Of a stretch of DNA of 64,000 nt, positions 5,991-54,260 are shown in pieces. The DNA is taken from assembly GCA_964016885.1 (NCBI GenBank), contig OZ024746.1, positions 73,780,001-73,844,000 on the forward strand, in the 5' to 3' direction. The DNA comes from Eledone cirrhosa. Its lineage: Eukaryota. Under the pieces are notes generated by a model. The model saw nothing but the letters and a program-made list of their open reading frames with translations. It was not told where the DNA came from and searched no databases. Numbering within the stretch: position 1 is the stretch's first letter; the number at the start of each line of letters is the position of its first letter. The position numbers and the translations under genes were made by a program.

Positions 5991-5996
5991 CCCATT

Positions 5997-8900
5997 GCTA
6001 TAGTAGACAGCCACAAGATGATGGGAGTAGCTGTGGTTGTTTAGCCCTAGGCCTGTCATGCTATAGTAGACAGCCACAAGATGATGGGAGTAGCTGTGGT
6101 TGTTTAGCCCTAGGTCTGTCATGCTATAGTAGACAGCCACAAGATGATGGGAGTAGCTGTGGTTGTTTAGCCCTAGGCCTGTCATGCTATAGTAGACAGC
6201 CACAAGATGATAGGAGTAGCTGTGGTTGTTTAGCCCTAGGCCAGTCATGCTATAGTAGACAGCCACAAGATGATGGGAGTAGCTGTGGTTGTTTAGCCCT
6301 AGGCCTGTCATGCTGTAGTAGACAGCCACAAGATGATGGGAGTAGCTGTGGTTGTTTAGCCCTAGGCCTGTCATGCTATAGTAGACAGCCACAAGATGAT
6401 GGGAGTAGCTGTGGTTGTTTAGCCCTAGGCCTGTCATGCTATAGTAGACAGCCACAAGATGGCGGGAGTAGCTGTGGCTGTTTAGCCCTAGGCCAGTCAT
6501 GCTATAGTAGACAGCCACAAGATGATGGGAGTAGCTGTGGTTGTTTAGCCCTAGGCCTGTCATGCTGTAGTAGACAGCCACAAGATGATGGGAGTAGCTG
6601 TGGTTGTTTAGCCCTAGGCCTGTCATGCTATAGTAGACAGCCACAAGATGGCGGGAGTAGCTGTGGCTGTTTAGCCCTAGGCCAGTCATGCTATGTTAGA
6701 CAGCCACAAGATGATGGGAGTAGCTGTGGTTGTTTAGCCCTAGGCCAGTCATGCTATAGTAGACAGCCACAAGATGATGGGAGTAGCTGTGGTTGTTTAG
6801 CCCTAGGCCTGTCATGCTATAGTAGACAGCCACAAGATGACGGGAGTAGCTGTGGTTGTTTAGCCCTAGGCCTGTCATGCTGTAGTAGACAGCCACAAGA
6901 TGATGGGAGTAGCTGTGGTTGTTTAGCCCTAGGGCTGTCATGCTGTAGTAGACAGCCACAAGATGATGGGAGTAGCTGTGGTTGTTTAGCCCTAGGCCAG
7001 TCATGCTATGTTAGACAGCCACAAGATGACGGGAGTAGCTGTGGTTGTTTAGCCCTAGGCCTGTCATGCTATAGTAGACAGCCACAAGATGATGGGAGTA
7101 GCTGTGGTTGTTTAGCCCTAGGCCTGTCATGCTGTAGTAGACAGCCATAAGATGATGGGAGTAGCTGTGGTTGTTTAGCCCTAGGCCTGTCATGCTGTAG
7201 TAGACAGCCACAAGATGATGGGAGTAGCTGTGGTTGTTTAGCCCTAGGCCTGTCATGCTGTAGTAGACAGCCACAAGATGATGGGAGTAGCTGTGGTTGT
7301 TTAGCCCTAGGCCTGTCATGCTGTAGTAGACAGCCACAAGATGATGGGAGTAGCTGTGGTTGTTTAGCCCTAGGCCTGTCATGCTGTAGTAGACAGCCAC
7401 AAGATGATGGGAGTAGCTGTGGTTGTTTAGCCCTAGGCCAGTCATGCTATGTTAGACAGCCACAAGATGACGGGAGTAGCTGTGGTTGTTTAGCCCTAGG
7501 CCTGTCATGCTGTAGTAGACAGCCACAAGATGATGGGAGTAGCTGTGGTTGTTTAGCCCTAGGCCTGTCATGCTGTAGTAGACAGCCACAAGATGATGGG
7601 AGTAGCTGTGGTTGTTTAGCCCTAGGCCTGTCATGCTGTAGTAGACAGCCACAAGATGATGGGAGTAGCTGTGGTTGTTTAGCCCTAGGCCTGTCATGCT
7701 GTAGTAGACAGCCACAAGATGATGGGAGTAGCTGTGGTTGTTTAGCCCTAGGCCTGTCATGCTGTAGTAGACAGCCACAAGATGATGGGAGTAGCTGTGG
7801 TTGTTTAGCCCTAGGCCTGTCATGCTGTAGTAGACAGCCATAAGATGACGGGAGTAGCTGTGGTTGTTTAGCCCTAGGCCTGTCATGTTGTAGTAGACAG
7901 CCACAAGATGATGGGAGTAGCTGTGGTTGTTTAGCCCTAGGCCTGTCATGCTGTAGTAGACAGCCACAAGATGATGGGAGTAGCTGTGGTTGTTTAGCCC
8001 TAGGTCTGTCATGCTGTAGTAGACAGCCACAAGATGATGGGAGTAGCTGTGGTTGTTTAGCCCTAGGCCAGTCATGCGATGGTAGACAGCCACAAGGTGA
8101 CGGGAGTAGCTGTGGTTGTTTAGCCCTAGGCCTGTCATGCTGTAGTAGACAGCCATAAGATGATGGGAGTAGCTGTGGTTGTTTAGCCCTAGGCCTGCCA
8201 TGCTGTAGTAGACAGCCACAAGATGATGGGAGTAGCTGTGGTTGTTTAGCCCTAGGCCTGTCATGCTGTAGTAGACAGCCACAAGATGATGGGAGTAGCT
8301 GTGGTTGTTTAGCCCTAGGCCTGTCATGCTATAGTAGACAGCCACAAGATGATGGGAGTAGCTGTGGTTGTTTAGCCCTAGGCCTGTCGGGCTATAGTAG
8401 ACAGCCATAAGATGACGGGAGTAGCTGTGGTTGTTTAGCCCTAGGCCAGTCATGCTGTAGTAGACAGCCACAAGATGACGGGAGTAGCTGTGGTTGTTTA
8501 GCCCTAGGCCTGTCATGCTGTAGTAGACAGCCACAAGATGATGGGAGTAGCTGTGGTTGTTTAGCCCTAGGCCTGTCATGCTATAGTAGACAGCCACAAG
8601 ATGACGTGAGTAGCTGTGGTTGTTTAGCCCTAGGCCAGTCATGCTGTAGTAGACAGCCACAAGATGACGGGAGTAGCTGTGGTTGTTTAGCCCTAGGCCT
8701 GTCATGCTGTAGTAGACAGCCACAAGATGATGGGAGTAGCTGTGGTTGTTTAGCCCTAGGCCTGTCAGGCTATAGTAGACAGCCATAAGATGATGGGAGT
8801 AGCTGTGGTTGTTTAGCCCTAGGCCTGTCATGCTATAGTAGACAGCCACAAGATGACGTGAGTAGCTGTGGTTGTTTAGCCCTAGGCCAGTCATGCTGTA

Positions 8901-9636
8901 GTAGACAGCCACAAGATGACGGGAGTAGCTGTGGTTGTTTAGCCCTAGGCCAGTCATGCTGTAGTAGACAGCCACAAGATGACGGGAGTAGCTGTGGTTG
9001 TTTAGCCCTAGGCCAGTCATGCTATAGTAGACAGCCACAAGATAATGGGAGTAGCTGTGGTTGTTTAGCCCTAGGCCAGTCATGCTATAGTAGACAGCCA
9101 TAAGATGATGGGCGTAGCTGTGGTTGTTTAGCCCTAGGCCTGTCATGCTGTAGTAGACAGCCACAAGATGATGGGAGTAGCTGTGGTTGTTTAGCCCTAG
9201 GCCTGTCAGGCTATAGTAGACAGCCACAAGATGATGGGAGTAGCTGTGGTTGTTTAGCCCTAGGCATGTCATGCTGTAGTAGACAGCCACAAGATGATGG
9301 GAGTAGCTGTGGTTGTTTAGCCCTAGGCCTGTCAGGCTATAGTAGACAGCCACAAGATGATGGGAGTAGCTGTGGTTGTTTAGCCCTAGGCCAGTCATGC
9401 TATAGTAGACAGACATAGAAGACCGGAGAATTTCAGGCTGTTTAGCCAGAGGCCAGTCATGCTATTGTAGACATACATAAGATGATGGGAGTAGTTCAGG
9501 CTGTTTAGCCCTAGGCCAGTCATGCCAGTCAGGCTATTGTGACATACATAAGATGATGGGAGTAGTTCAGGCTGTTTAGCCCTAGGCCAGTCATGCCAGT
9601 CATGCTATTGTAGACATACATAAGATGACTTGAGTA
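5997..9636. repeat. 63-bp minisatellite, about 54 homogeneous units plus ~3 degenerate terminal units
   Basis: Unit GCTATAGTAGACAGCCACAAGATGATGGGAGTAGCTGTGGTTGTTTAGCCCTAGGCCTGTCAT repeated head-to-tail to ~9416, then diverging. Confidence 0.97.
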
Positions 9637-10577: not shown

Positions 10578-10648
10578 TATTTTATCTGATGAAAACGCAG
10601 ATATCATCCCATGATGATATTTGTTTTTGAAATGCGCATAATAAAATA
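10578..10648 (+). ncRNA. Complete type I hammerhead ribozyme in a Penelope-like end (~10290-10685)
   Basis: TATTTTAT-CTGATGA-AAA.GCAGATATCATC(CCAT)GATGATATTTGT.TTT-GAAA-TGCGCA-TA-ATAAAATA: perfect 8-bp stem I, long stem II, palindromic stem III. Confidence 0.85.
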
Positions 10649-10678
10649 CTTGGAACTCTTTTAACCATCTTTTGATCT

Positions 10679-13225: not shown

Positions 13226-16200
13226 CTACAGGCTGATATAGAGAGAGGGCCCATTCACTCGGGCCATTCTCGCTACTTTCACCCATCTTTCATAAAACTT
13301 GCTGGGGGTAGAGCACCTCTCTCTCCATTCTGATCCTTCTTCTAAAGTGGTACTTGAAAAAAAAGACCAGTTGTTGGCCGGAGAGAAAGGTGTCTGACCT
13401 CAGCCCTTTCAACCTTGTCCACCATACAACTTCTTTCGCCATGGCTATCACACAGAGGAAAACCGCCTCTCCTTCGTTTTTGAAAGGGGGAGGCGGTTTG
13501 ATTGTGACAATGTTCTCGGTGGTCAGCCGGATTGTCCATCGGTTCCGGGCCAAACGTCCTACCGAACAGACTGGCCAGCTCGTCTTCCTCCATGCCCAGA
13601 GCCTCTCCGAGAGCCTCTCCGAGAGCGTCGTCGCACTTACTGCGCACCAACCCTCTATAGAATGTTGAGGTTGAGTCTCCACTGATTGCCGGATCCGCTT
13701 GCCAGAGGGCCGTGAGCGCCTGGGCACATTCAATGTGCCAGTCGCCCACTTTTCTCGGTCTTTTCTTGACCCAGCATTGCAGCTCGGTGAGTGAGACGTG
13801 TCTCGGAAAGGCTCGCCTCACAAACAGGGCCCACACCGGCTGACCGGTGAGGAATACCTGGAGGTGCCGTAGCCTTAATGCGTGTCTACGCATCGTCAGC
13901 CACGGCAGCCCCAGCCCTCCGTTCGAAGGGTGTTGACAGCAGATGGATCTTCTCACCAAAGGAGCCCGCTTCTTCCAAAGAAATCGGAAGAGCGCGCGCT
14001 CCATTTTGGCGAGTGTTTTCTCTGGGCAAGGCACGACGGTCAAGCGGTAGTAGATGACGGACGCTATATAAGCGTTCGCCACCTCCGCTCGACCTTTCAG
14101 GGATAGTTTGCACTCGGCCCACTTCTGGGCGAGTGCAAACACCTTGCCAGTTACCTCGTCCCAGTTTTTCTCCACCTGGAGGTCCGGTCCGAACCAGACC
14201 CCGAGCAGCTTCACCGGTCCCTCCGTCCAGCGTCCGACGATGCCGTCGGAGGGCATCGTTTTGCCCCTCCACGTCCCGAGTTGCAAACCGACGGACTTGT
14301 CCCGGTTCAGCTTGGCTCCTGTGAACCTTTCATATTCCTCCAGTAAGGTAACGATCTGCCCGATTTCCGAGGCGCACGACACCATTACTGTCACGTCATC
14401 GGCGTAGGCCGACACCGCTTTCCGCAATCCCGGTTCCAAGGGGATGCCTGCAACAGCTCCAGCTTCCTTAGTAGTGGCTCGAGAGCCAGCACATACAGGA
14501 GGGAGGAGAGAGGGCATCCCTGTCGAATGGATCGCGTGATTTGGAACGGCTCCGAGAGGTAGCCGTTCACCTTGACCCTCGAGCAGGTGTTGCTGCTGTG
14601 CATTGCAGCAATCCAGCCCCTGAAAACGGGTCCGAAGTCTGCCGCCGCGAGCACCGCATCCAGGTACCGATGGTCAACCCTATCGAACGCTTTAGATTGA
14701 TCCAAGTTGATCAGGGCCCCACCAAAGCCGGGTTCGTTCCCTACCCTCTCTACGATGTATCGCATGAGGTGGAGGTTGTCGTGTATGGACCTGGGCGGGA
14801 TTGCGCATGTCTGCGCTTCTCCCACCAGGTTCCCGACGACAAGCGCCAACCTCCTCGCTAACACCTTTGCCAAAATCTTTAACTCTGTGTTTAGCAGAGT
14901 TATGGGCCTGAAGTTATCTATGTCATCCCCCTTGTTCTCGTCCTTCCTCACCATCGTGACTACGCCCTTGGTCACAGAACTGGGAATTCTCCCGTTCTGT
15001 TGCCAGTTGCAGTAGACCGCCTCGAGGAGACCGGAGAACAAGCCCGGCATCGCTACATAAGTTCGTATGGTAGACCATCGAGACCCGGAGATTTGCGTTT
15101 GCCGCATTGGCTCAGCGCTTCCCCTATTTCAGCGGTTGAAATCGGCCTCTCGCAGGACTTCGCCTCCCCGTCCGAGAGCCGCGCCAGACCGTCGAGGTAT
15201 GGACCAAAATCCATGGCCCCACCCGGCCCGCCGCCCCTCCCGAACAGTCGTGCAAAGCGCCGTTGAAAGGCCGCGCTCATCCGCTCAGGTTCAAGGATCA
15301 CGCGTCCATCCTGGTCCTTCAAAGACCGAATCGTGGACTTGTTTCCACTTTTTGCCTCTGTCACTCGGGCCCAGCTAACAGCTTTGGCTCCCTCGTTACC
15401 CAGAGCACGTATTTTACTCCTGACAGCGCAGCCCTCGTGCTTCGCATCAAAGAACTGGTCTAGGGCCGTTCTTGACGCCAGCACGCCGGCCACGTTGCCA
15501 CTCCTAATCGCCTCTTCTACTCTATTTGTTAATTCCCTTTCAGTTCTATTCCTATCTGATGCTAATTCGCGACTAAAACCTATCGATTCTATTCTAATTT
15601 CTCTCTTGAGAGAGTCCCACCACCTGTTGTTGACAATTGCCCCCGTCAAACGCTGCTTAACTAGTGTGCTAATCCGCTTACTGTAAGCTTTGTTTGTCGG
15701 TAAAGACAAGTTTAGCTTCCAGTAACCGGGTCCCTGTCTATGAGTTCTATCAAGGTTGACCACTCCGAATAGTCAACCATGAACATTCGTGGACAGCTTA
15801 ATATGTCCCTATCCTTATTTCTAACTAGGAACCTATCTAGGTACGACCTGGATGTTGCGCTGCGATTACTCCACGTCCACCGTGGCACAGTCGGAAAATC
15901 CAGTCCATATCTATCGGCCAGATCAAATCGGCCGATTAATCGTTTGAGGCTGTTACACCCCCCTCTATCGGAACATGCCCCTACATAGTCCCAACGTGCA
16001 TTCAGGATACCATTCCAGTCCCCCACTAAAAGCAAGGAGCGAGACGTTCCCAGGAAATTCTCCAGGCGTCGGAAGAAGTCCGGTCGCGGTGTCCCAGATG
16101 GCGCATACGCTGCCACCAGCCTGAAAGCTCCACCTTCACCACTGCCGACGTCTAAAACCACCAGTAGACCCTCCGGGTCCAGGTGTACCTTCTGTGTGGT

Positions 16201-16440
16201 AAGACCCAGGTATTTTCGCAGCAGAACGACAACCCCACCCCCACCCCTCGGCTGACAGAGAGATGCGTAGATCTCAAAGTCGTCGAAGATGGGGGCCAGT
16301 TGGCGCTCGCTGCTGATCCTGGACTCGCAAATAACCATTACATCCACTCTGTGCGACCTGAGGTCATTTAAGAGTTTGCCCTGTTTCCAGGACATCCCCA
16401 AGCCGCGTGCATTCACACATCCAACTCTTATATTGGCCAT
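13226..16440 (-). pseudogene. ORF2 (APE endonuclease + reverse transcriptase), several frameshifts and a ~215-bp deletion of the C-terminal zinc knuckle
   Basis: NARGL, GDWN, SYLDR (APE); FRPITLLN, DQSKAFDRV, RQGCPLS, AYADD (RT). The junction at ~13530 lacks the CPRC..HALVHC segment present in the copy at 35217-35430. Confidence 0.92.
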
Positions 16441-16479
16441 GTTGGTGCTGAAGAGGTAAAAAGGAAGAGGAAAGGAAAT

Positions 16480-18268
16480 TACTTACCTCTTCGTCTCCTG
16501 AGGACCAGGCTGCACAATTTCCATGGGGGTGTCGGAAGGGTTGTTTGGTGGGGTGGTGGTTTGTGGTGGGGTGAGGACATCAGTGTGTGGTGGGATTAGG
16601 GTGTTTGGTGGGGTGTGGGTGTCTGAATGTGGGGGTGGGGAAACATCTCAATAGGACGCTGTTATGTGGTTTGGTGCAGTTGGTCCCCACATGCATTGGA
16701 TGGTTCTTTTTCAAAGTTACATAGGTTTCCGTTGGGACCCTAATCATCATTAGGTGCGGTTTGTTCGCTGCGTAGGTGAAAGTGATCCCTTCGGTTTCCA
16801 CCGAAGGGTTATTTTCTATCGCTTTCATCAACGTTTTATTGTTCTTGTTAATGTATGTATAGAGTTTTTGTTGTCTTGTGTTTGTTTTTGTTTGTTGTTC
16901 TTGTGCGTTATTGCGTTTTGTAGTACGTGTTATGTTTTGGGGAGGGGTGGGTTTTTTATTTGTGATGTTTGTTCTGTTTGTGCTGGTGGTTGTGTGTTTG
17001 TGGCATTTTTGTTAATGTGGTGCCTTTTTTTTCTTCCTTTTCACCTGTTGAAAGGGTTCTCCCTCGTCGTCACTGGGTGACGTTGATACGGAGTCCTCTT
17101 CCGTGTTGTTGGGGAGGGGTATATTTTGGGGTTTTGTTGTGGTTGCTTTTGTATTTGTTTTAGGTGGGGAGGGGTTGGGTGGAACAGTGTTTTCTGTTGT
17201 TATTTTTCCGTGTTGTTGTGGTTGTTGTTGTTGTTGTTGTGGTGGTGGTGGTTGTGTTGTTGTGTTCGGGGTTGGCAGAAGAGCCTTTTTTTTTTGACTC
17301 GTTAATTGAGGACAGGCAGCCCTCAGGTGACCCCTGCTTAAGCAGTGGTAACATGACGGCCGCCTTCCCTCCACTGAAATGTTTATATAAGTTAGCCCGT
17401 CCAGAGGCACGCGTTGTGGGATATTCGCTATTCGTTCTGGGCTCATTTGCACCAGAACTTCTACGGTGGTCCCACCAAATACACCTCCGGAGGACTTTCC
17501 TATTGAAATTATCTTGTCTTCGTCAAAGTTAATTATTCCACATAGTATCCACCAAATATTTACATTTGGTGTGATACTCATTATTTTTATTCTTTGTGTC
17601 CTTTTTCCCCTGTATGTGGGGTAAAAGGTGAAGCGGGGGGACACAATGGGTGCTACCGAGTACTTTTGAGCTGTTGACTGGTTGTTCATTAACACCGAAA
17701 TGCTACCAAACAGTTTACCTTTTTGTATGAAGGTTAAGTCCTTCATTGCATCTTTTAGAACCGGCTCAATTTCATTTTGTGATAATTGAGCTGGTTTTCT
17801 TTTTTCGTTCGATATTGTCCTGAAAACCACAGTTTTCAGGACAGCCTCTCTACATAATTCCTGTAGAGAATTGATGCTAAAAGCACCGTTTTCGCCAAAA
17901 GTCACGAATTGTTTTGCGTCTTGTAATAGTTGTTTAGCATTTGTTATGTCTATTGGCGTGTATAGTTCGTTTTTTTTTACGGTCTGTGCGAATGTTGTTT
18001 TGGTGTTGTTGTCTTTTTTGTTACTGTCACTGTTGGTAATATTGGTGTTGCTATTGTTGCAGTTGTTGGTTGTGGTGTTATTGCCATTGTTCTTGTTGTT
18101 GGTGCTGGTATTATTTACCGGGTTTGGTTTCGTGGTTTCGATATTTTTCACGTTTTTCGATGATGCGAGGGGGGAAGGCTGCAAGCTTTGTACTCCTACC
18201 TTCCCTCCACCACTTTTCTTAGTGGGCGTGGCACTCACGACAGTGTGCGAGGTGGAAATGGCATCCAT
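16480..18268 (-). pseudogene. ORF1 (gag-like, CCHC knuckle), frameshifted toward its 3' end
   Basis: CYHCLSRGHLRAAC knuckle; homologous to the ORF1 at 30457-32290 (TFAQ..K...YTPID, GENG.FSINS, VEGRRP.CY.C). Confidence 0.85.
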
Positions 18269-20829: not shown

Positions 20830-20877
<48 letters not shown>

Positions 20878-21080
20878 TATGTATACGTACATACATATAT
20901 GTATACAGACGTACAGTAGTATGTATATATATATACATACATGCACACATATATATATGTACGTATGGTTCACCGAACATTTATTATAATACTCAGTGTG
21001 TTTGTAAACAAACATCCCGAATTAAGCCGTACAGTGTCTAGCAACCATCGTTGCTCATTTGTTCAACCCTGATAAAGGAA

Positions 21081-21121
21081 CGCTGTACTAGTTTCAAGCT
21101 TATTAGCTATCGTCAGCAACG
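21081..21121 (-). ncRNA. Type I hammerhead, unit 1
   Basis: Minus strand: CGTTG-CTGACGA-T-AGCT(AATA)AGCT-T-GAAA-CTAG-TA-CAGCG. Confidence 0.85.
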
Positions 21122-21512
21122 TATACCTTCCTGCCAGATGATTGAACGTCTGAAAGTATATACTTTCCTCATGCATATTAACGGCTGAGCAGCCTAATTT
21201 GCATATAGAGTGAGTTAATCGGCCGGAGTACCGAAAACGATAAACAGAAAAAAATGAAACGAAATTTCATTTCTCACTCTTAGTACGGCTGTTACTTAAA
21301 TATAAGTATGTATACGTACATACATATATGTATACAGACGTACAGTAGTATGTATATATATATATACATACATGCACACATATATATATGTACGTATGGA
21401 TTCACCGAACATTTATTATAATGCTCGGTGTGTTTGTAAACAAACATCCCGAATTAAGCCGTACAGTGTCTAGCAAGCATCGTTGCTCATTTGTTCAACC
21501 CTGATAAAGGAA

Positions 21513-21553
21513 CGCTGTACTAGTTTCAAGCTTATTAGCTATCGTCAGCAACG
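21513..21553 (-). ncRNA. Type I hammerhead, unit 2
   Basis: Same motif as unit 1. Confidence 0.85.
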
Positions 21554-21946
21554 TATACCTTCCTGCCAGATGATTGAACGTCTGAAAGTATATACTTTCC
21601 TCATGCATATTAACGGCTGAGCAGCCTAATTTGCATATAGAGTGAGTTAATCGGCCGGAGTACCGAAAACGATAAACAGAAAAAAATGAAACGAAATTTC
21701 ATTTCTCACTCTTAGTACGGCTGTTACTTAAATATAAGTATGTATACGTACATACATATATGTATACAGACGTACAGTAGTATGTATATATATATATATA
21801 CATACATGCACACATATATATATGTACGTATGGATTCACCGAACATTTATTATAATGCTCGGTGTGTTTGTAAACAAACATCCCGAATTAAGCCGTACAG
21901 TGTCTAGCAAGCATCGTTGCTCATTTGTTCAACCCTGATAAAGGAA

Positions 21947-21987
21947 CGCTGTACTAGTTTCAAGCTTATTAGCTATCGTCAGCAACG
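21947..21987 (-). ncRNA. Type I hammerhead, unit 3
   Basis: Same motif as unit 1. Confidence 0.85.
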
Positions 21988-22494
21988 TATACCTTCCTGC
22001 CAGATGATTGAACGTCTTAAAGTATATACTTTCCTTATGCATATTAACGGCTGAGCAGTCTAATTTGCATATCGAGTGAGTTAATCGACCGGGGTACCGA
22101 AAACGATAAACGGAAAAAATGAAACGAAATTTCATTTCTCACTCTTAGTACGGCTGTTACTTAAATATAAGTATGTATACGTACATAAATATATGTATAC
22201 AGACGTACAGTATTTTTTGAAACTAGTACAGCGTTCCTTTGTCAGTGTTGAACAAACGAGCAACGATGGTTGCTAGACACTACGGCTTAATACGGGATGT
22301 TTGTTTACAAACACACCGAGCATTATAATAAATGTTCGGTGAATCCATACGTACATATAATAATGGTGCATGTATGTATATATATATACATACTACTGTA
22401 CGTCTGTATACATATATGTATGTACGTATACATACTTATATTTAAGTAACAGCCGTACTAAGAGTGAGAAATGAAATTTCGTTTCATTTTTTCC

Positions 22495-22569
<75 letters not shown>

Positions 22570-22574
22570 TACTC

Positions 22575-30254: not shown

Positions 30255-33200
30255 GATAGAGTAAGACACGCTTCGCATCGGCTCCGCTATTCCATCGGGA
30301 TTTACCCTTACTATTGTAAGTACCGGATAAATTTTTTAGTGCAACACATTTGGAACACTAACCCCTGTTATTTAGGGAAACATTTTTGCATTTACCCCCT
30401 TTTTAGGGGGTAAAATAAATATCTATTTTTGCCGAAAAATTTCTTTCTTGGCAGCATGGCGGAAAAGATGGCAGACATGTCTGCCATTAGCTCTGCCACG
30501 CCCCCCAAGTCTGAAGAACAAAAAATAATTACAACAAAATTAGACATTGAAACAAACAAACAAAATGAAAAAACAAATGTTAAGGAAAATGAGCAAACAG
30601 AAAACAAACAAACAGAAAATAATACAAATAACGACAGGGCAACTTTCGCCCAGAAAACAAAACAATCCATTACATACACACCAATTGACCTAACTGCCGC
30701 CAGAGAAAAACTGGCCGAAGCAAAGAAACACATTGTTTTGGGGGAGAACGGAATGTTTTCCATTAACTCCCCCCCAGAATTCAAGAAAGCCAGAGCAGAA
30801 AACACAGTTCTATACAGAACTATACTGAACCAGACAAGAAAGCCAGCACAGCCCAGCCAAATGGAAATAGAGTTAGTCCTAAAAGACTATATGAAGAATA
30901 TTCTCTTCATACGAAAGGACCGACTCTATGGCAGCATTTCGGTCCTAACAAGAGACAAAGAAACGGCGGAGAAGCTTTCCCTAAGCCCACTCTCGTCGAC
31001 AACATATAGCTTCTGTCCCTCCTACATGGGTAGAAGAACACAGAGAGTAAAAGTAAAAACAATGCTGCCCACAATGGACTTCTGGTGGGCTATTGCGGGC
31101 TTCATTGATATGGGCGAAGACACTATGCTGTCAATGGGGAAGGCAACTGGAGATGCGTTCCTGGGAATGGGCCTCGACATACTAGTCCAAATGAGGCCCG
31201 AAAGAATAGCACAAATCCCGGATCGCATCTGGCTGATGACCTTACCCCAATAGACATAATTGTAGAGGGGAGAAGACCAGCATGCTATTTATGCATGGAA
31301 AGGGGACACGTTAAGGCTAACTGCCCGAAACGTATCCCCCAAAAAGGACTATTGCCCACACCCACCACAAACAGTACACCAGCACCACCCACCTCCAAAA
31401 ATACACTAATACCACACACAGCAAACAAAATACAGACACCACCAACCACAAACACAACACAAACATCACCACCACCAGCACCAAACACAAGCACGACACA
31501 AAAATCACCACCACCAACCACAACACAAACATCACCACCACCATCACCAACCACAAGCACGACACAAACATTACCACCACCACCACCACAAAACCCATTC
31601 CAAACAAATAATAAAAAAAACAGTAACAAATCTACCCCTCCCGCAAAAAAAAACAACCACACAACACGTCCCTCCCACCTAGCGCTGAAGAGTTTCCCCC
31701 AACTTCTGAAGAAGAAGGAGGAGAAGCCTTCAGACAAGTTAAAAGAAAAAAAAGAAAACACACACCCAGCACACCACAAATAACCCACACACAAACACCA
31801 ACTCCAATCAAAAACACCCCACCCTCAACAAACAAAAATAAATCTGCGCCTCCCCTCTCCGAAACATTGACAGCATCACAAAAAAAGACGTTGCAATACA
31901 CATATATAAATAAAGAAAACAAAAAACTGGTTAAATTAATAAACAATAACCCTATGGTGCAGACCGAAGGGCCAAACTTTATCTCAACAGAGAACTTCAC
32001 CCATTTAAAAATGATAAAGGTCCCTCTGGACCTTTATCGTTCCTTAAAAGAACAATTTAGACGGGACGTGAGCCCCCCCCTGTTTAAAACCGTTGAATCG
32101 CGTCCTCTTGAAAGATTTCGCCATAACCGCCCCTCTCCCTGACACAACTCCAAATACCCCAACCCCACCACACACGTGTACCCCCACACCACCACAAAAC
32201 ATCCCTCCACCCAACACACCTGATGCCATGGAAATTACGCAACCCGGAGAGGTAAGTGCTTTTCTTTCTTCACTTTCAACACCAAAATAGATCAATTGAG
32301 AGTTGGCTGTTTGAACGCGCGTGGCCTGGGCTCAGCTTGGAAGCAAGCAAAGCTTCTAAGTGACCTCAGGTCACAAAGTATAGATGTGATGGTTGTTTGC
32401 GAGAGTCGGATCAGCAGCGTGAGACAGCTGGCGCCCGCCTTCGATGACTTTGAGATGCACGCATCTCTCTGTCAACCCGGAGGCGGGGGGGGGGGGGGGA
32501 GTTGCCGTACTGCTGGATAAACGTCTGACTCTCGACGTACAGATTGTTCACTCGGACCCGGGGGGTCGATTACTGGTGCTGGCTGGACGTCGGAGGCGGT
32601 GAAGGCGGGGCTTTCAGACTGGTCGGTCTTTATGCTCCCTTCGGGGCGGAAAGAGCCGACTTCTTCCAGCGTCTGGAGACTTTTCTAGGAACGTCGCGTT
32701 CCCTGCTTTTAGTGGGGGACTGGAATGGAATCCTAGATGCGCGTTGGGACTATGCAGGGGCATGTCCCGATAGAGGGGGGTGTAGCAGCCTCAAGGGGTT
32801 ACTCGATCGATTCGACCTGGTCGATAGATTTCGACTAGATTGTCCAACTGCGCCAACCTGGACCTGGGCAAACCGCAGTGGACAATCTAGATCGTACCTA
32901 GATAGGTGTTTGGTTAGGAGTAAGGATAGGGACGTATTTAGTTGTCCAGAACTGATCATGGTTGGCTATTCAGATCACAAATTAGTGACCTGCGTGGTCA
33001 ACCTTGATAGAACGCATAGACAGGGTCCCGGTTACTGGAAGATGAACTTGTCCTTACCGACAAAGAAAGATTACAGAAACCGGATTAGTAGCTTAGTTAA
33101 GATGCGGTTGACGGGAGCGATCGTCAACAGTAGGTGGTGGATATCTCTAAAGAGAGAGATTAGAGTAAGTTCGATAGGTTACAGTAAGGAACTAGCGGCG

Positions 33201-35966
33201 AATAGAAATAGGAGGGAAAGGGAGTTAACAGATAAACTAGAAGAGGCGATTAGGAGCGGAGACGTAGCCAGAGTGTTAGCGATGAAAACGGCATTGAGCC
33301 AGTTCTTTGACGCGAAGCACGAAGGCTGCGTTGTCCGAAGTAAAATACGTGCTTTAGGAAACGAGGGGACCAAAGCTGTTAGCTGGGCCCGCGTGACAGA
33401 AGCCAAGAGTGGGATTAAATCCACCATTCGGTCTTTGCGAGACCAGGATGGACGGGTGATCCTTGAACCTGAGCGAATGTGCGAGACCTTTCAAAGGCAC
33501 TTTGCTCGACTGTTCGGAGGTGGCGGGGGGCCGGACGGGGATGTGGACTTCGGTCCATACCTCGACGGTCTACCGCGTCTTTCGAGCGGCGAAGCGGAGT
33601 GCTGCGAAAGGCCAATCACAGCCACTGAAATCGGGGAAGCGCTCAGCCAATGCAGCAGACGCAAATCCCCGGGTCTCGATGGTCTACCATACGAACTTTA
33701 TTTAGCTATGCCGGTCTTGTTCTCCGAACTCCTCGAGGCTGTCTATTGCAACTGGCAACAGAACGGGAGAATTCCCTGTTCTGTGACAAAGGGCGTGGTC
33801 ACGCTAGTGAGGAAGGACGAGAGCAAGGGGGACGACTTAAGTAACTTTAGGCCCATAACTCTGCTGAATGCAGAGTTACAGATTTTGGCCAAGGTATTGG
33901 CGAAGAGGTTGGCGCTTGTGGTGGGTGGTTTGGTGGGAGACGCGCAGACATGCGCTATCCCGTCCAGGTCCATTCACGACAACCTCCACCTCATGCGATA
34001 CATCATAGAGAGGGTTGGCTACGAACCCGGCTTTGGTGGGGCCCTGATCAACTTGGATCAATCTAAGGCGTTCGATAGGGTCGACCATGGTTACCTGGAT
34101 GCGGTGCTAGCGGCGGCGGGCTTCGGACCCGTTTTCAGGGGCTGGATTTCTGCCATGCACAGTGGCAACATCTACTCTAGAATTAAAGTAAACGGCTACC
34201 TCTCGGAGCCGTTTCAAATCACCCGATCCATCAGACAGGGGTGCCCCCTCTCCTCCCTTCTGTACGTATTGACTCTCGAGCCACTGCTGCGGAAGTTGGA
34301 GTTGCTGCGGGGCATACCCCTGGAACCGGGATTGCACAAAGCGGTCTCGGCCTATGCCGACGACGTAACAGTAATGGTGGCGGACGCCTCGGAAATCGGG
34401 GCGATCGCCACCCTACTGGAGGAATACGAAAGGCTGACGGGGGCTTAGCTGAACCAGGACAAGTCAGTCGGTTTGCAACTCGGAACGTGGAGGGGCAAAC
34501 CGATGCCGTTAGACGGTGTCGTCGGGCGGTGGACGGAGGGCCCGGTGAAGCTGCTCGGGGTCTGGTTCGGACCGGACCTCCAGGTGGAGAAGAATTGGGG
34601 CGAGGTGACGAGCAGGGTGTTTGCGCTGACCCAGAAGTGGGCCAAGTGCAAACTATCACTGAAAGGTCGGGCGGAGGTGACGAACGCTTACATAGCGTCC
34701 GTCATCTACTACCGCCTGACCGTCGTGCCTTGCCCCAAGGAAAAGCTCACCATCATGGAACGCATGCTCTTCCAGTTCCTCTGGAAGAAGCGGCCTCCCA
34801 TGGTGAGGAGATCCATCTGCTGCCAGCACCCTTCGAAAGGAGGGCTGGGTATGCCGTGGCTGTTGATGCGTAGGCACGCATTGAGGCTACGGCATCTACA
34901 GGTATTCCTCAACTGTCAGCCGGTGTGGGCCCCGTTTGTGAGGCGAGCCTTCCCACAGCTCGTCTCGCTCACCGAACTGCAATCCTGGGTGAAGCAAAGA
35001 CCGAGAAAACTGGGCAACTGGCACACTGAGTGTGCCCAGGCGCTCACGGCTATCTGGCAAGCGGACCCGACTGTCAGTGGAGAATCCACCTCGACATTCT
35101 ATAGAGGGTTGGTGGCTAGCAGGGGCGACGACACCCTTGGAGAGTCGCTAGGCATGGAGGAGGACGAACTCGCCAGCCTGTTCGGTAGAACTTTCGGCCC
35201 GGGACCCATGGACAACTTCCAGAGGTCCCTAGCCTGGCAGTGTTACCGGGGGGCTCTGCCCGTTCGAGAAAAGCTCTACAGACACGGGCGCCCGGGCAGG
35301 GATCCCGCGAAAAAGATCTGTCCCAGATGCGTGCGCGACGAGGAAACCGTTGCGCATGCACTGGTACACTGCCCGGGCGTTGCCGATCTGTGGGGCTACG
35401 TCGAACGACTGCTGTCGCGTGTGGCGCCGATTCGATTAACCGCCGAGTCTGTGGTGAACATCAAGCCGCCTCCTCCCTTCAGAAATGAAGCAGAGGCGGT
35501 CTTTCTGTGCGTAATAGCCATGATGAAAGAGGTTGTGTGGTGGACGCGCCTGAAAGGTCTGAGGTCGGGTGACTTTCTCTCCGGCCATCACCTGGTTTAC
35601 TTCTTCCGATACCACTTCGGAAGAAGAATCAGGATGGAGAGAGAAGTGCTTGGTCCCAGACAGTTTTATGAAAGGTGGGTGAAAGAAGCGAGAATGGCCC
35701 GTGTAAATGGGCCTTCTCTCTACATTGTTGTGTAGGTGAAGAAGTGAAGAGGAAAGGGGGAGCGCCTCCTCTCTGGGCTTCCCCCGCGAAAAGAGTTGCA
35801 CACTTTTCGGGGGTATGTGCAATCCCCAACACGCCCCCTCCCTTTTGAGGACTTTTTATTGTTATATTATTATTGTTATTCCTTTTTTCTTTACTCGATT
35901 TATGTAAACTCCCCCACTGTGTAAATGTCCCCTTCTTTTGTGCCCTCGTGGCAAATAAATAGAAAT

Positions 35967-36919: not shown

Positions 36920-37107
36920 TAATAAATGTTCTAAACTAAAATTTGATCGTTGTAACACTTTATATATATTTTATATATATATATATATATATAATATATA
37001 TATCTCTTTTACCTGTTTCAGCCATCCGGCTGAGGCCATATATATATAAAGTGTTAAAACGATCACCTGAAGTGTAAATAAGTAAAATTCACTCTCATTA
37101 ATATCAC

Positions 37108-37171
<64 letters not shown>

Positions 37172-37236
37172 GTGATATTAATGAGAGTAAATTTTACTTA
37201 TTTACACTTCAGGTGATCGTGCATACATATATGTAT

Positions 37237-37754
37237 ACGTCTGTATACATATATGTATGCACGTATACATACATACATACATTTAAGTAAGTGCCGTACT
37301 AAGAGTGAGAAATGAAATTTCGTTTTATTCTATTCCATTTATCATTTTCGGTGTGCCCGGCCGACTGAACTCACTCGATATGCAAATTAGGCTGCTCAGC
37401 CGTTAATATGCATAAGGAAAGTATATACTTTCAGACGTTCAACCATCTGGCAGGAAGGTATACGATGCTGACGATAGCTAATAAGCTTGAAACTAGTACA
37501 TCGTTCCTGTGTCAGTGTTGAACAAAAAGGTGACGTGGTTGCCTAAACACTGTACATCGTACAAACAAACAAACCGATCATTATAATAAATGTTCGGTAA
37601 ACCGATATATATATATATGTGTGCATGTATGTATATATATACATACTACTGTACGTCTGTATACATATATGTATGCACGTATACATACATACATACTTAC
37701 ATTTAAGTAAGTGCCGTACTAAGAGTGAGAAATGAAATTTCGTTTCATTCTATT

Positions 37755-37758
<4 letters not shown>
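37237..37758 (+). mobile_element. Diverged 1.25-unit copy of the retrozyme-like family (period 420), hammerhead at 37463-37503
   Basis: ATTTAAGTAAGTGCCGTACT at 37281 and 37701; CGATG-CTGACGA-T-AGCT(AATA)AGCT-T-GAAA-CTAG-TA-CATCG. Confidence 0.85.
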
Positions 37759-37800
<42 letters not shown>

Positions 37801-37980
37801 GTAATATTAATGAGAGTAAATTTTACTTATTTACACTTCAGGTGCTAACACACTTCTTAATATACAACTTAATTAACGCAAATTAGAAGCAAATTAGTAC
37901 GTCCATTTCAGAATAATTTAAAGAGAGAATGGGTCTAGAAACCAATCAAATATTTCCTCGTGGTTGCTTGGATGATGTAC

Positions 37981-45857: not shown

Positions 45858-47724
<1,867 letters not shown>

Positions 47725-54036: not shown

Positions 54037-54260
<224 letters not shown>

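What the first reader, a model, noticed from the sequence alone, without database searches (positions are those of the whole stretch)
37452..37510. Compensatory change in ribozyme stem I between two subfamilies
Seen: the array units have stem I CGUUG/CAGCG, while the diverged 37-kb copy has CGAUG/CAUCG. Both strands changed at the same pair (U-G to A-U) while core, stem II and stem III are invariant and neighbouring sequence is clearly diverged. The 37-kb copy is also terminally redundant (1.25 units, period 420). Inference: selection maintains the fold, and the redundancy fits reverse transcription of a circular or multimeric RNA.
Basis: partly seen in the sequence, partly recalled or inferred. 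Interest (0 to 1): 0.75.

Follow-up and report, generated by a model that had tools for sequence, protein, structure and literature searches.

The report
Retrozyme family with Penelope-type insertion ends
The paired change is real and is one of several that keep the predicted RNA fold of a protein-less repeat with about 25,000 copies, which carries a hammerhead ribozyme motif and whose insertion ends show it is likely copied by Penelope-type jumping-gene enzymes; such elements (retrozymes) are already known from other animals.

Summary
Confirmed: A37465/U37501 here versus U/G in all three array units. The unit is a 420-470 bp non-coding repeat with a type I hammerhead motif, 24,639 motif matches in a 3.0-Gb genome. 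The whole unit supports the inference: 5 predicted pairs changed on both sides (permutation p=6e-5), and subfamily-fixed changes avoid stems while private ones do not (p=2e-4; 4 of 6 single-copy structure controls hold). The core alone is not significantly more conserved than its flanks (p=0.19). 86 of 96 arm ends fall at two sites about 60 nt apart beside (TA)n; 14 of 19 back-to-back pairs use one of each, none the same twice. This is the published Penelope 'tail' signature; a young Penelope-like element with a 1,280-codon frame and 57-bp tail is in the genome and the window. Cleavage, circles and expression are untested. New member of a known kind; this scan noted the same end pattern for a sister subfamily on other DNA (e1-8803026).

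The parts
37222..37758 (+). Single-arm insertion of the A-U subfamily, about 1.3 periods, 5'-truncated, ending at the second fixed 3' site, followed by (TA)n 37757-37797
37457..37508 (+). Type I hammerhead motif: stem I 37462-37467/37499-37504 with 3-nt/1-nt internal loop and outer helix; core 37468-37474 and 37489-37492; U·U at base of 4-bp stem II (37476-37487); 1-bp stem III with palindromic tetraloop (37492-37497); predicted cleavage after A37498
   Evidence: sequence; weak Rfam Hammerhead_HH9 alignment, 17.6 bits, E=0.032, below gathering 52; fold z=-3.08
37465..37501 (+). The covarying pair: A37465 with U37501 (U·G in the array units, G·U in other subfamilies)
37703..37758 (+). 'Tail' between the two fixed 3' end sites (59-62 nt in four natural units, uncertain by a few bases because of TA microhomology)
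20871..22212 (-). Three-unit arm (period 432-434) of the U·G subfamily, hammerhead cores starting at 21982, 21548, 21116; ends at the first fixed site in (TA)n
22217..22500 (+). Inverted, head-to-head partner arm of the array, ending at the second fixed site in (TA)n 22498-22571
37169..37221 (+). About 50-bp flank repeated at 37798-37844 beyond the (TA)n (46 of 47 alike): possible long target-site duplication; a third, inverted copy at 37059-37110 makes this uncertain
45966..47632 (.). Two-armed inverted remnant of a young Penelope-like element (endonuclease end, own hammerhead-like motif at about 47372-47416 read by eye, 57-bp tail on one arm only, (TA)n on both sides): candidate helper family

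Best explanation
This is a high-copy, protein-less repeat with a type I hammerhead motif whose subfamilies differ by pairing-preserving changes, likely a non-LTR retrozyme: tandem copies would be transcribed, cut by the ribozyme (predicted to need two copies), likely closed into 420-470 nt circles, and likely copied back into (TA)n tracts by a Penelope-like element's endonuclease and reverse transcriptase. Shown: the motif, copy number, subfamilies, covariation, two fixed 3' ends about 60 nt apart, back-to-back arms that use one end each, (TA)n at the ends, read-through across the cleavage site, and a young Penelope-like element with the same layout. Inferred: selection acts at the RNA stage, because only templates that fold get amplified; the two ends are the two start sites of reverse transcription, each primed on one cut DNA strand; the stem I change went stepwise (A-U to U·U or G·U to U·G). 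Untested: transcription, cleavage, circularisation, identity of the helper.
For: Copy number: 15,854 matches to the CUGACGA core pattern (control 3) plus 8,785 to a CUGAUGA pattern. Pair states among 12,247 CUGACGA copies with the rest of the stem intact: U·G 7,270; 3'-U 4,548 (first 100 listed, my hand count: 64 A-U, 34 G·U, 2 U·U); V/G 174; N/M 255, so about 96% pair. Among 9 subfamily majorities, 51 fixed changes fall 18 on paired and 33 on unpaired sites, private changes 204 and 119 (OR 0.32, p=2e-4); 136 of 200 private changes in stems break the pair, while 8 of 10 variable pairs have only canonical states. 16 variable paired sites give 5 doubly changed pairs of 82 (p=6e-5). RNAalifold on 14 natural copies: 4 of 74 pairs changed on both sides, two in a long-range helix. 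Four natural monomers fold as similar branched circles. Ends: 49 + 37 of 96 terminal arms at two sites (35 + 33 under a strict (TA)n rule); 14 of 19 two-arm loci use one of each, 5 have one odd arm, none uses the same site twice (p=5e-5). Frangieh et al. [quoted passage not shown] Helper candidate: 1,280-codon open frame with RT-like motifs, Cys linker and GIY-YIG-like end (the related copy L076), copies 97-100% alike, two ends 57 bp apart on opposite arms.
Against: No RNA or cleavage data. The structure used for the main tests was predicted from the same subfamilies; with structures from single copies the stem avoidance held in 4 of 6 (p<0.03) and not in 2 of 6 (p=0.41, 0.26). The stem I change is about one event, with low tree support along the intermediates. 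One of the 5 double pairs passes through A·G in 3 of 9 subfamilies. Core conservation is not significant and is biased by finding copies through the core. The monomer's predicted best fold pairs the core with loop III (p=0.88; active fold 8 kcal/mol worse). Rfam score is far below threshold. Li et al. 2026 saw cleavage in only 1 of 9 predicted Xenopus dimers, and PAc insertion in vitro did not need cleavage. The tail-length match to one helper is weak: five other two-ended (TA)n families have offsets of about 39, 67-72, 80, 93 and 95, so some near match is not unlikely by chance. Samples are the first hits on contig C1 or best BLAST hits, not random draws.
Confidence: 0.65

Rival explanations
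1. A non-autonomous Penelope-dependent repeat copied from long, uncut linear transcripts of tandem arrays; the fold is selected for binding the Penelope protein and for RNA stability, and the hammerhead rarely cuts, so no circle is needed.
For: All end and read-through data fit equally. PAc uses unprocessed RNA and ribozyme mutants insert normally (PMC11167929). Monomer predicted to be self-blocked. Some arrays are mixtures of unit types with imperfect periodicity (L206, L205). Two of the doubly changed pairs lie in helices next to the tail, not in the ribozyme.
Against: No change at the 11 strictly conserved core positions in 9 subfamilies; the 3 changes inside the motif hit N7 and loop II (not significant, ascertained). 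Several young arrays have 8-9 near-identical units on both arms (L208, L209), as rolling-circle copying of one monomer would give. Circles were shown for retrozymes of coral, mussel and axolotl (PMC7229834).
Confidence: 0.27
2. The units are cut-short terminal repeats (pLTRs) of a protein-coding Penelope-like element, later expanded in place as satellite DNA.
For: Li et al. 2026 found pLTR homology for 24 of 57 Xenopus retrozyme families (21 of 22 matched elements PLEs) and propose local expansion. Period-2 arrays with hierarchical drift (L205) suggest DNA-level duplication does occur.
Against: After the second end site, inner units continue into the unit itself, closing a 420-470 nt cycle; in the autonomous element the same site runs into the reading frame. 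The 104 mapped 5' junctions are scattered and show no shared upstream sequence by eye. No similarity between three reference units and the full-length helper beyond TA repeats. Stem II is 4 bp with a canonical bulge, unlike the 7-8 bp stem II described for minimal PLE hammerheads (PMC4209133). I did not search the whole genome for a parent.
Confidence: 0.05
3. The double change is chance hitch-hiking of two substitutions in a founder copy, or the inversions come from LINE-type twin priming; no selection on the fold.
For: One event cannot be told from chance; LINE-like elements are present in the window.
Against: Five doubly changed pairs and stem avoidance. In LINE twin priming (recalled) the inverted arm ends next to where the other arm begins and has no fixed end; here both arms have fixed, different ends.
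Confidence: 0.03

Closest known systems
Metazoan non-LTR retrozymes (Cervera and de la Pena 2020, PMC7229834; main text read, parts 1-4 of 6)
   Same: Type I hammerhead in each unit of a short AT-rich non-coding tandem repeat, thousands of copies, no LTR; 1-bp stem III with palindromic tetraloop as in axolotl HHR_Amex1, U·U at the base of stem II as in HHR_Amex2; highly self-paired predicted circle.
   Different: Unit is longer (420-470, some arrays to 546, versus 170-400 nt) and holds a TA-rich microsatellite; both weakening features occur in one ribozyme; fixed ends, tail and inverted arms are not described in the text I read; no RNA data here.
Insertions of endonuclease-bearing Penelope-like elements (Craig et al. 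2021, PMC8557442, passages; Frangieh et al. 2024, PMC11167929, main text)
   Same: 5'-truncated partial tandems, inverted adjacent arm, extension on one end only, (TA)n targets.
   Different: No reading frame; tail about 60 nt rather than 30-40; unit closes on itself.
Vertebrate retrozymes as non-autonomous PLE sequences (Li, Clavereau, Pollet 2026, bioRxiv 10.64898/2026.07.22.740005; parts 1-3 of 5 read, supplements not seen)
   Same: Same conclusion, PLE dependence.
   Different: Their evidence is co-occurrence and pLTR homology; here it is the insertion-end signature, with no homology to the one full-length PLE compared.
Non-autonomous Chlamys elements such as MRC1 (PMC8557442, passage)
   Same: Non-coding, multicopy head-to-tail insertions attributed to a PLE.
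   Different: Those generally resemble their autonomous partner at the 3' end; Chlamys mostly lack hammerheads.

Membership tests
Type I hammerhead ribozyme | Conserved core CUGANGA / GAAA / UH with three helices, helix I open | tested here: met
   Sequence; Rfam HH9 aligns over the full model but at 17.6 bits, below gathering
Type I hammerhead ribozyme | Helix pairing supported by covariation | tested here: met
   Stem I pairs -3/+33, -12/+40, -13/+41 vary with pairing mostly kept; stems II and III invariant, so uninformative
Type I hammerhead ribozyme | G10.1-C11.1 pair at the base of helix II | tested here: not met
   U·U instead; the same deviation is reported for the active axolotl HHR_Amex2, so not disqualifying
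Type I hammerhead ribozyme | Self-cleavage | not testable with these tools
   Monomer predicted blocked
Non-LTR retrozyme | Short non-coding tandem units each with a type I hammerhead, high copy, dispersed | tested here: met
   no complex frame of 170 aa inside units other than chance repeat-like frames
Non-LTR retrozyme | Unit 150-450 bp, GC below 50% | tested here: met
   420-470 bp typical, upper end slightly exceeded; region 30% GC
Non-LTR retrozyme | Expressed as linear and circular monomer RNA | not testable with these tools
   No RNA holder listed
PLE-mobilised element | Two fixed 3' ends (one-sided tail) | tested here: met
   86 of 96 arms; 14 of 19 pairs one of each, 0 same
PLE-mobilised element | Inverted 5'-truncated arm and partial tandems, (TA)n target | tested here: met
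PLE-mobilised element | Sequence shared with an autonomous partner's terminal repeat | tested here: inconclusive
   None with the one full-length element compared; other PLE families not compared in full
Autonomous PLE | RT plus GIY-YIG reading frame | tested here: not met
   Absent from the unit; present in the separate element L201
Neptune/Nematis PLE (helper L201) | C-terminal GIY-YIG preceded by CX2-5CxxC linker | tested here: inconclusive
   Cys linker and GIY-YIG-like motifs read by eye; weak hit to an intron endonuclease at residues 709-787, E=0.14; no Pfam hit for L201; no tree built

The most novel reading that the evidence does not exclude
A true RNA-circle parasite that shares no sequence with its helper yet programs two reverse-transcription start sites about 60 nt apart by structure alone, is driven by the young Neptune-like element found here, and locks its own ribozyme in the monomer by pairing the core with loop III. 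Its many dated subfamilies would be a fossil record of selection on a whole circular RNA fold, and the intact helper frame would make retrozyme mobilisation reconstitutable in vitro.
Probability: 0.25. Interest if true: 0.68.

Novelty: new member of a known kind. Interest (0 to 1): 0.4.

Why it matters
Which enzyme moves animal retrozymes is still argued from co-occurrence and homology (PMC7229834; Li et al. 2026). An insertion signature described as unique to Penelope-like elements is more direct evidence, and a young helper with a long open frame offers a testable pair. The fixed-versus-private comparison shows that the fold of the whole unit, not just the ribozyme, is under selection.

Tried and rejected
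Rfam at gathering threshold: nothing in the window; E-value mode on 1.2 kb gave only microsatellite-driven miRNA hits. My generic hammerhead scan missed this motif because of its U·U and 1-bp stem III. Sequencing runs: no RNA holder listed; contigs of four runs suggested a variant rare in run X1 but common in X4-X6, which a genome search showed to be an artefact of the likeness filter, the variant having 8,785 copies. Chimeras as a mark of ligation at the cleavage site: 2 of 159 copies have a clean break spanning it (L104, L114) and a third breaks upstream (L099), but all come from loci with odd stem I pairs: inconclusive. Period-2 arrays as proof of dimer circles: 3 of 16 loci examined (L205, L074, L214), but L205 drifts hierarchically as DNA-level duplication would: inconclusive. 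Energy of the double hammerhead could not be evaluated. First end-mapping by BLAST was swamped by microsatellites and replaced. No covariance model or R-scape run was made; a permutation test stood in. The helper protein was not searched against large protein sets (searches returned no result). The outer register first read by eye (37452-37456 with 37504-37508) is broken in the CUGAUGA subfamily; the register with a 3-nt/1-nt loop is kept. Paper searches for a cephalopod retrozyme or for tails in retrozymes listed none; the library lacks most subscription journals and Repbase.

Full report
Observation. The 37-kb copy has stem I CGATG (37463-37467) / CATCG (37499-37503); the three hammerheads of the minus-strand array at 20.9-22.2 kb have CGTTG / CAGCG; the 31 nt between are identical. 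The copy spans about 37222-37758 with period 420, but that period reflects a private loss of about 22 bp relative to a natural 444-bp unit of its subfamily, which removes one strand of a conserved long-range helix. Positions below are counted from the first core base (37468 = 0); predicted cleavage is between +30 and +31.

The motif. It has the hammerhead core, a 4-bp stem II closed by U·U, and a 1-bp stem III with a palindromic tetraloop. Rfam gives nothing at gathering level and a weak full-length alignment to the type I model HH9 (17.6 bits, E=0.032), which places a 3-nt/1-nt internal loop in stem I. Both weakening features are described, separately, for the two axolotl retrozyme hammerheads, which cut efficiently only as dimers (PMC7229834). 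The 92-nt region folds into a long rod (z=-3.08 and -2.25 for the two variants). The monomer is predicted to pair C3-U4-G5 with loop III (probability 0.88), an inactive fold 8 kcal/mol below the active one.

The family. The window lies in a 3.0-Gb genome; that it is octopus-like is my recall from composition and the wording of earlier scan notes, not a result. Exact patterns give 15,854 CUGACGA-type and 8,785 CUGAUGA-type matches. At the flagged pair, 12,247 CUGACGA copies with the rest of the stem intact split into 7,270 U·G, 4,548 with 3' U (first 100 listed: 64 A-U, 34 G·U, 2 U·U, hand count), 174 V/G (first 100: 40 A·G, 39 G·G, 21 C-G, hand count) and 255 N/M; the first 100 CUGAUGA matches all have G on the 5' side. 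A tree of 99 natural copies with the two pair columns removed separates a G·U group, an A-U group and a U·G group, with a few U·U, G·U and A·G copies between the last two at moderate support.

Selection on the fold. From 266 distinct hammerhead-centred copies, 159 covered the unit well; I grouped 137 of them by hand from clusters and tree into 12 subfamilies and used 9 for the main test, leaving out 3 small groups built largely from copies picked for odd pairs. On 262 well-aligned sites, fixed differences fall 18 on paired and 33 on unpaired sites, single-locus private changes 204 and 119 (p=2e-4; p=1e-3 with all 12). Sixteen variable paired sites giving five double pairs among 82 has permutation p=6e-5. 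Caveat: the structure came from the same subfamilies; with six single-copy structures the odds ratio was 0.24-0.74, significant in four and not in two. RNAalifold on 14 natural copies independently finds 4 of 74 pairs changed on both sides.

How copies are inserted. In 96 terminal arms from in-order samples on contig C1 and the window, 49 end near -185 and 37 near -127 of the next unit, mostly running into (TA)n; 10 end elsewhere (strict rule 35, 33, 28). The first site lies just after the unit's own microsatellite, so some lenient calls there may be inflated. In 19 head-to-head loci with a ribozyme on both arms, 14 use one site each, 5 have one odd arm, none repeats a site (p=5e-5). In 11 further loci an inverted partner without a ribozyme showed the complementary end, including the window's own array. 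The sites are 59-62 nt apart in four natural units. Craig et al. 2021 describe inverted 5'-truncated arms, a one-sided 30-40 bp tail and microsatellite targets for PLEs (passages); Frangieh et al. 2024 show the tail is the interval between two internal RT start sites and call it unique to PLEs. Because copying starts near -127 or -185 and runs 5'-ward through +30/+31, every copy with a whole ribozyme needed a template continuous across the cleavage site, and 5' ends do not pile up there (1 of 104, some of these calls being spurious hairpin matches). The template is thus a circle or an uncut multimer.

A candidate helper. The window holds a two-armed remnant at 45966-47632 with (TA)n on both sides and a tail on one arm. 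Its family has many 97-100% identical copies, ends 57 bp apart on opposite arms and a copy with a 1,280-codon open frame bearing RT-like motifs, a Cys linker and a GIY-YIG-like end (Pfam GIY-YIG weak on the related L076; none on L201). It shares no sequence with three retrozyme reference units beyond TA repeats. Five other (TA)n-ended families have offsets of about 39, 67-72, 80, 93 and 95, so this family is the closest match, but the match is weak evidence.

Comparison with what is known. It meets every testable feature of a metazoan non-LTR retrozyme (PMC7229834); expression and circles could not be tested. PLE dependence was proposed there and argued by Li et al. 2026 from co-occurrence and pLTR homology in vertebrates (supplements not seen). 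Six paper searches listed no report of this family or of tails in retrozymes. Earlier notes of this scan report the two fixed ends for the 466-nt sister subfamily (e1-8803026); I measured the pattern before reading that note, and it is not independent support.

Verdict. Real observation, sound inference, known class. Best explanation 0.65; linear uncut template 0.27. New member of a known kind; interest 0.40.

Noticed in passing
L205 (G000:C1:49.58 Mb), L074, L214: Young arrays alternating two unit types (15-18 shared differences in L205 and L074): dimer circle or DNA-level duplication; one type in L205 has a broken stem II pair.
   Followed up: partly
window 45966-47632; L201:809-4651: Very young Penelope-like family with a 1,280-codon open frame, own hammerhead-like motif and 57-bp tail.
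   Followed up: partly
window 37059-37110, 37169-37221, 37798-37844: Three copies of a ~50-bp sequence around the insertion, one inverted about a (TA)n; not seen in other loci searched.
   Followed up: partly
window 54098-54235: Decayed tail-only remnant of the retrozyme between (TA)n tracts.
   Followed up: partly
window about 10578-10650; L060: Hammerhead-like motif with long stem II belonging to another two-ended, (TA)n-targeted fold-back family with about 95-bp offset.
   Followed up: no
L014, L016, L063, L003, L060 flanks: Four other two-ended families seem by eye to share a small ACTC/GAGT hairpin just after their first end; the retrozyme has a different hairpin there.
   Followed up: no
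L104, L114: Chimeric copies whose two sides come from different subfamilies with the break spanning the cleavage site.
   Followed up: partly
window 32529-35732 and 13293-16482: LINE-like frames; RVT_1 and Exo_endo_phos confirmed for 32529-34445.
   Followed up: partly
window 5996-9596: 57-copy 63-bp minisatellite.
   Followed up: no
runs X4, X6: Low-depth contigs of several subfamilies in runs labelled as two other organisms; relative, diet or contamination not resolved.
   Followed up: no
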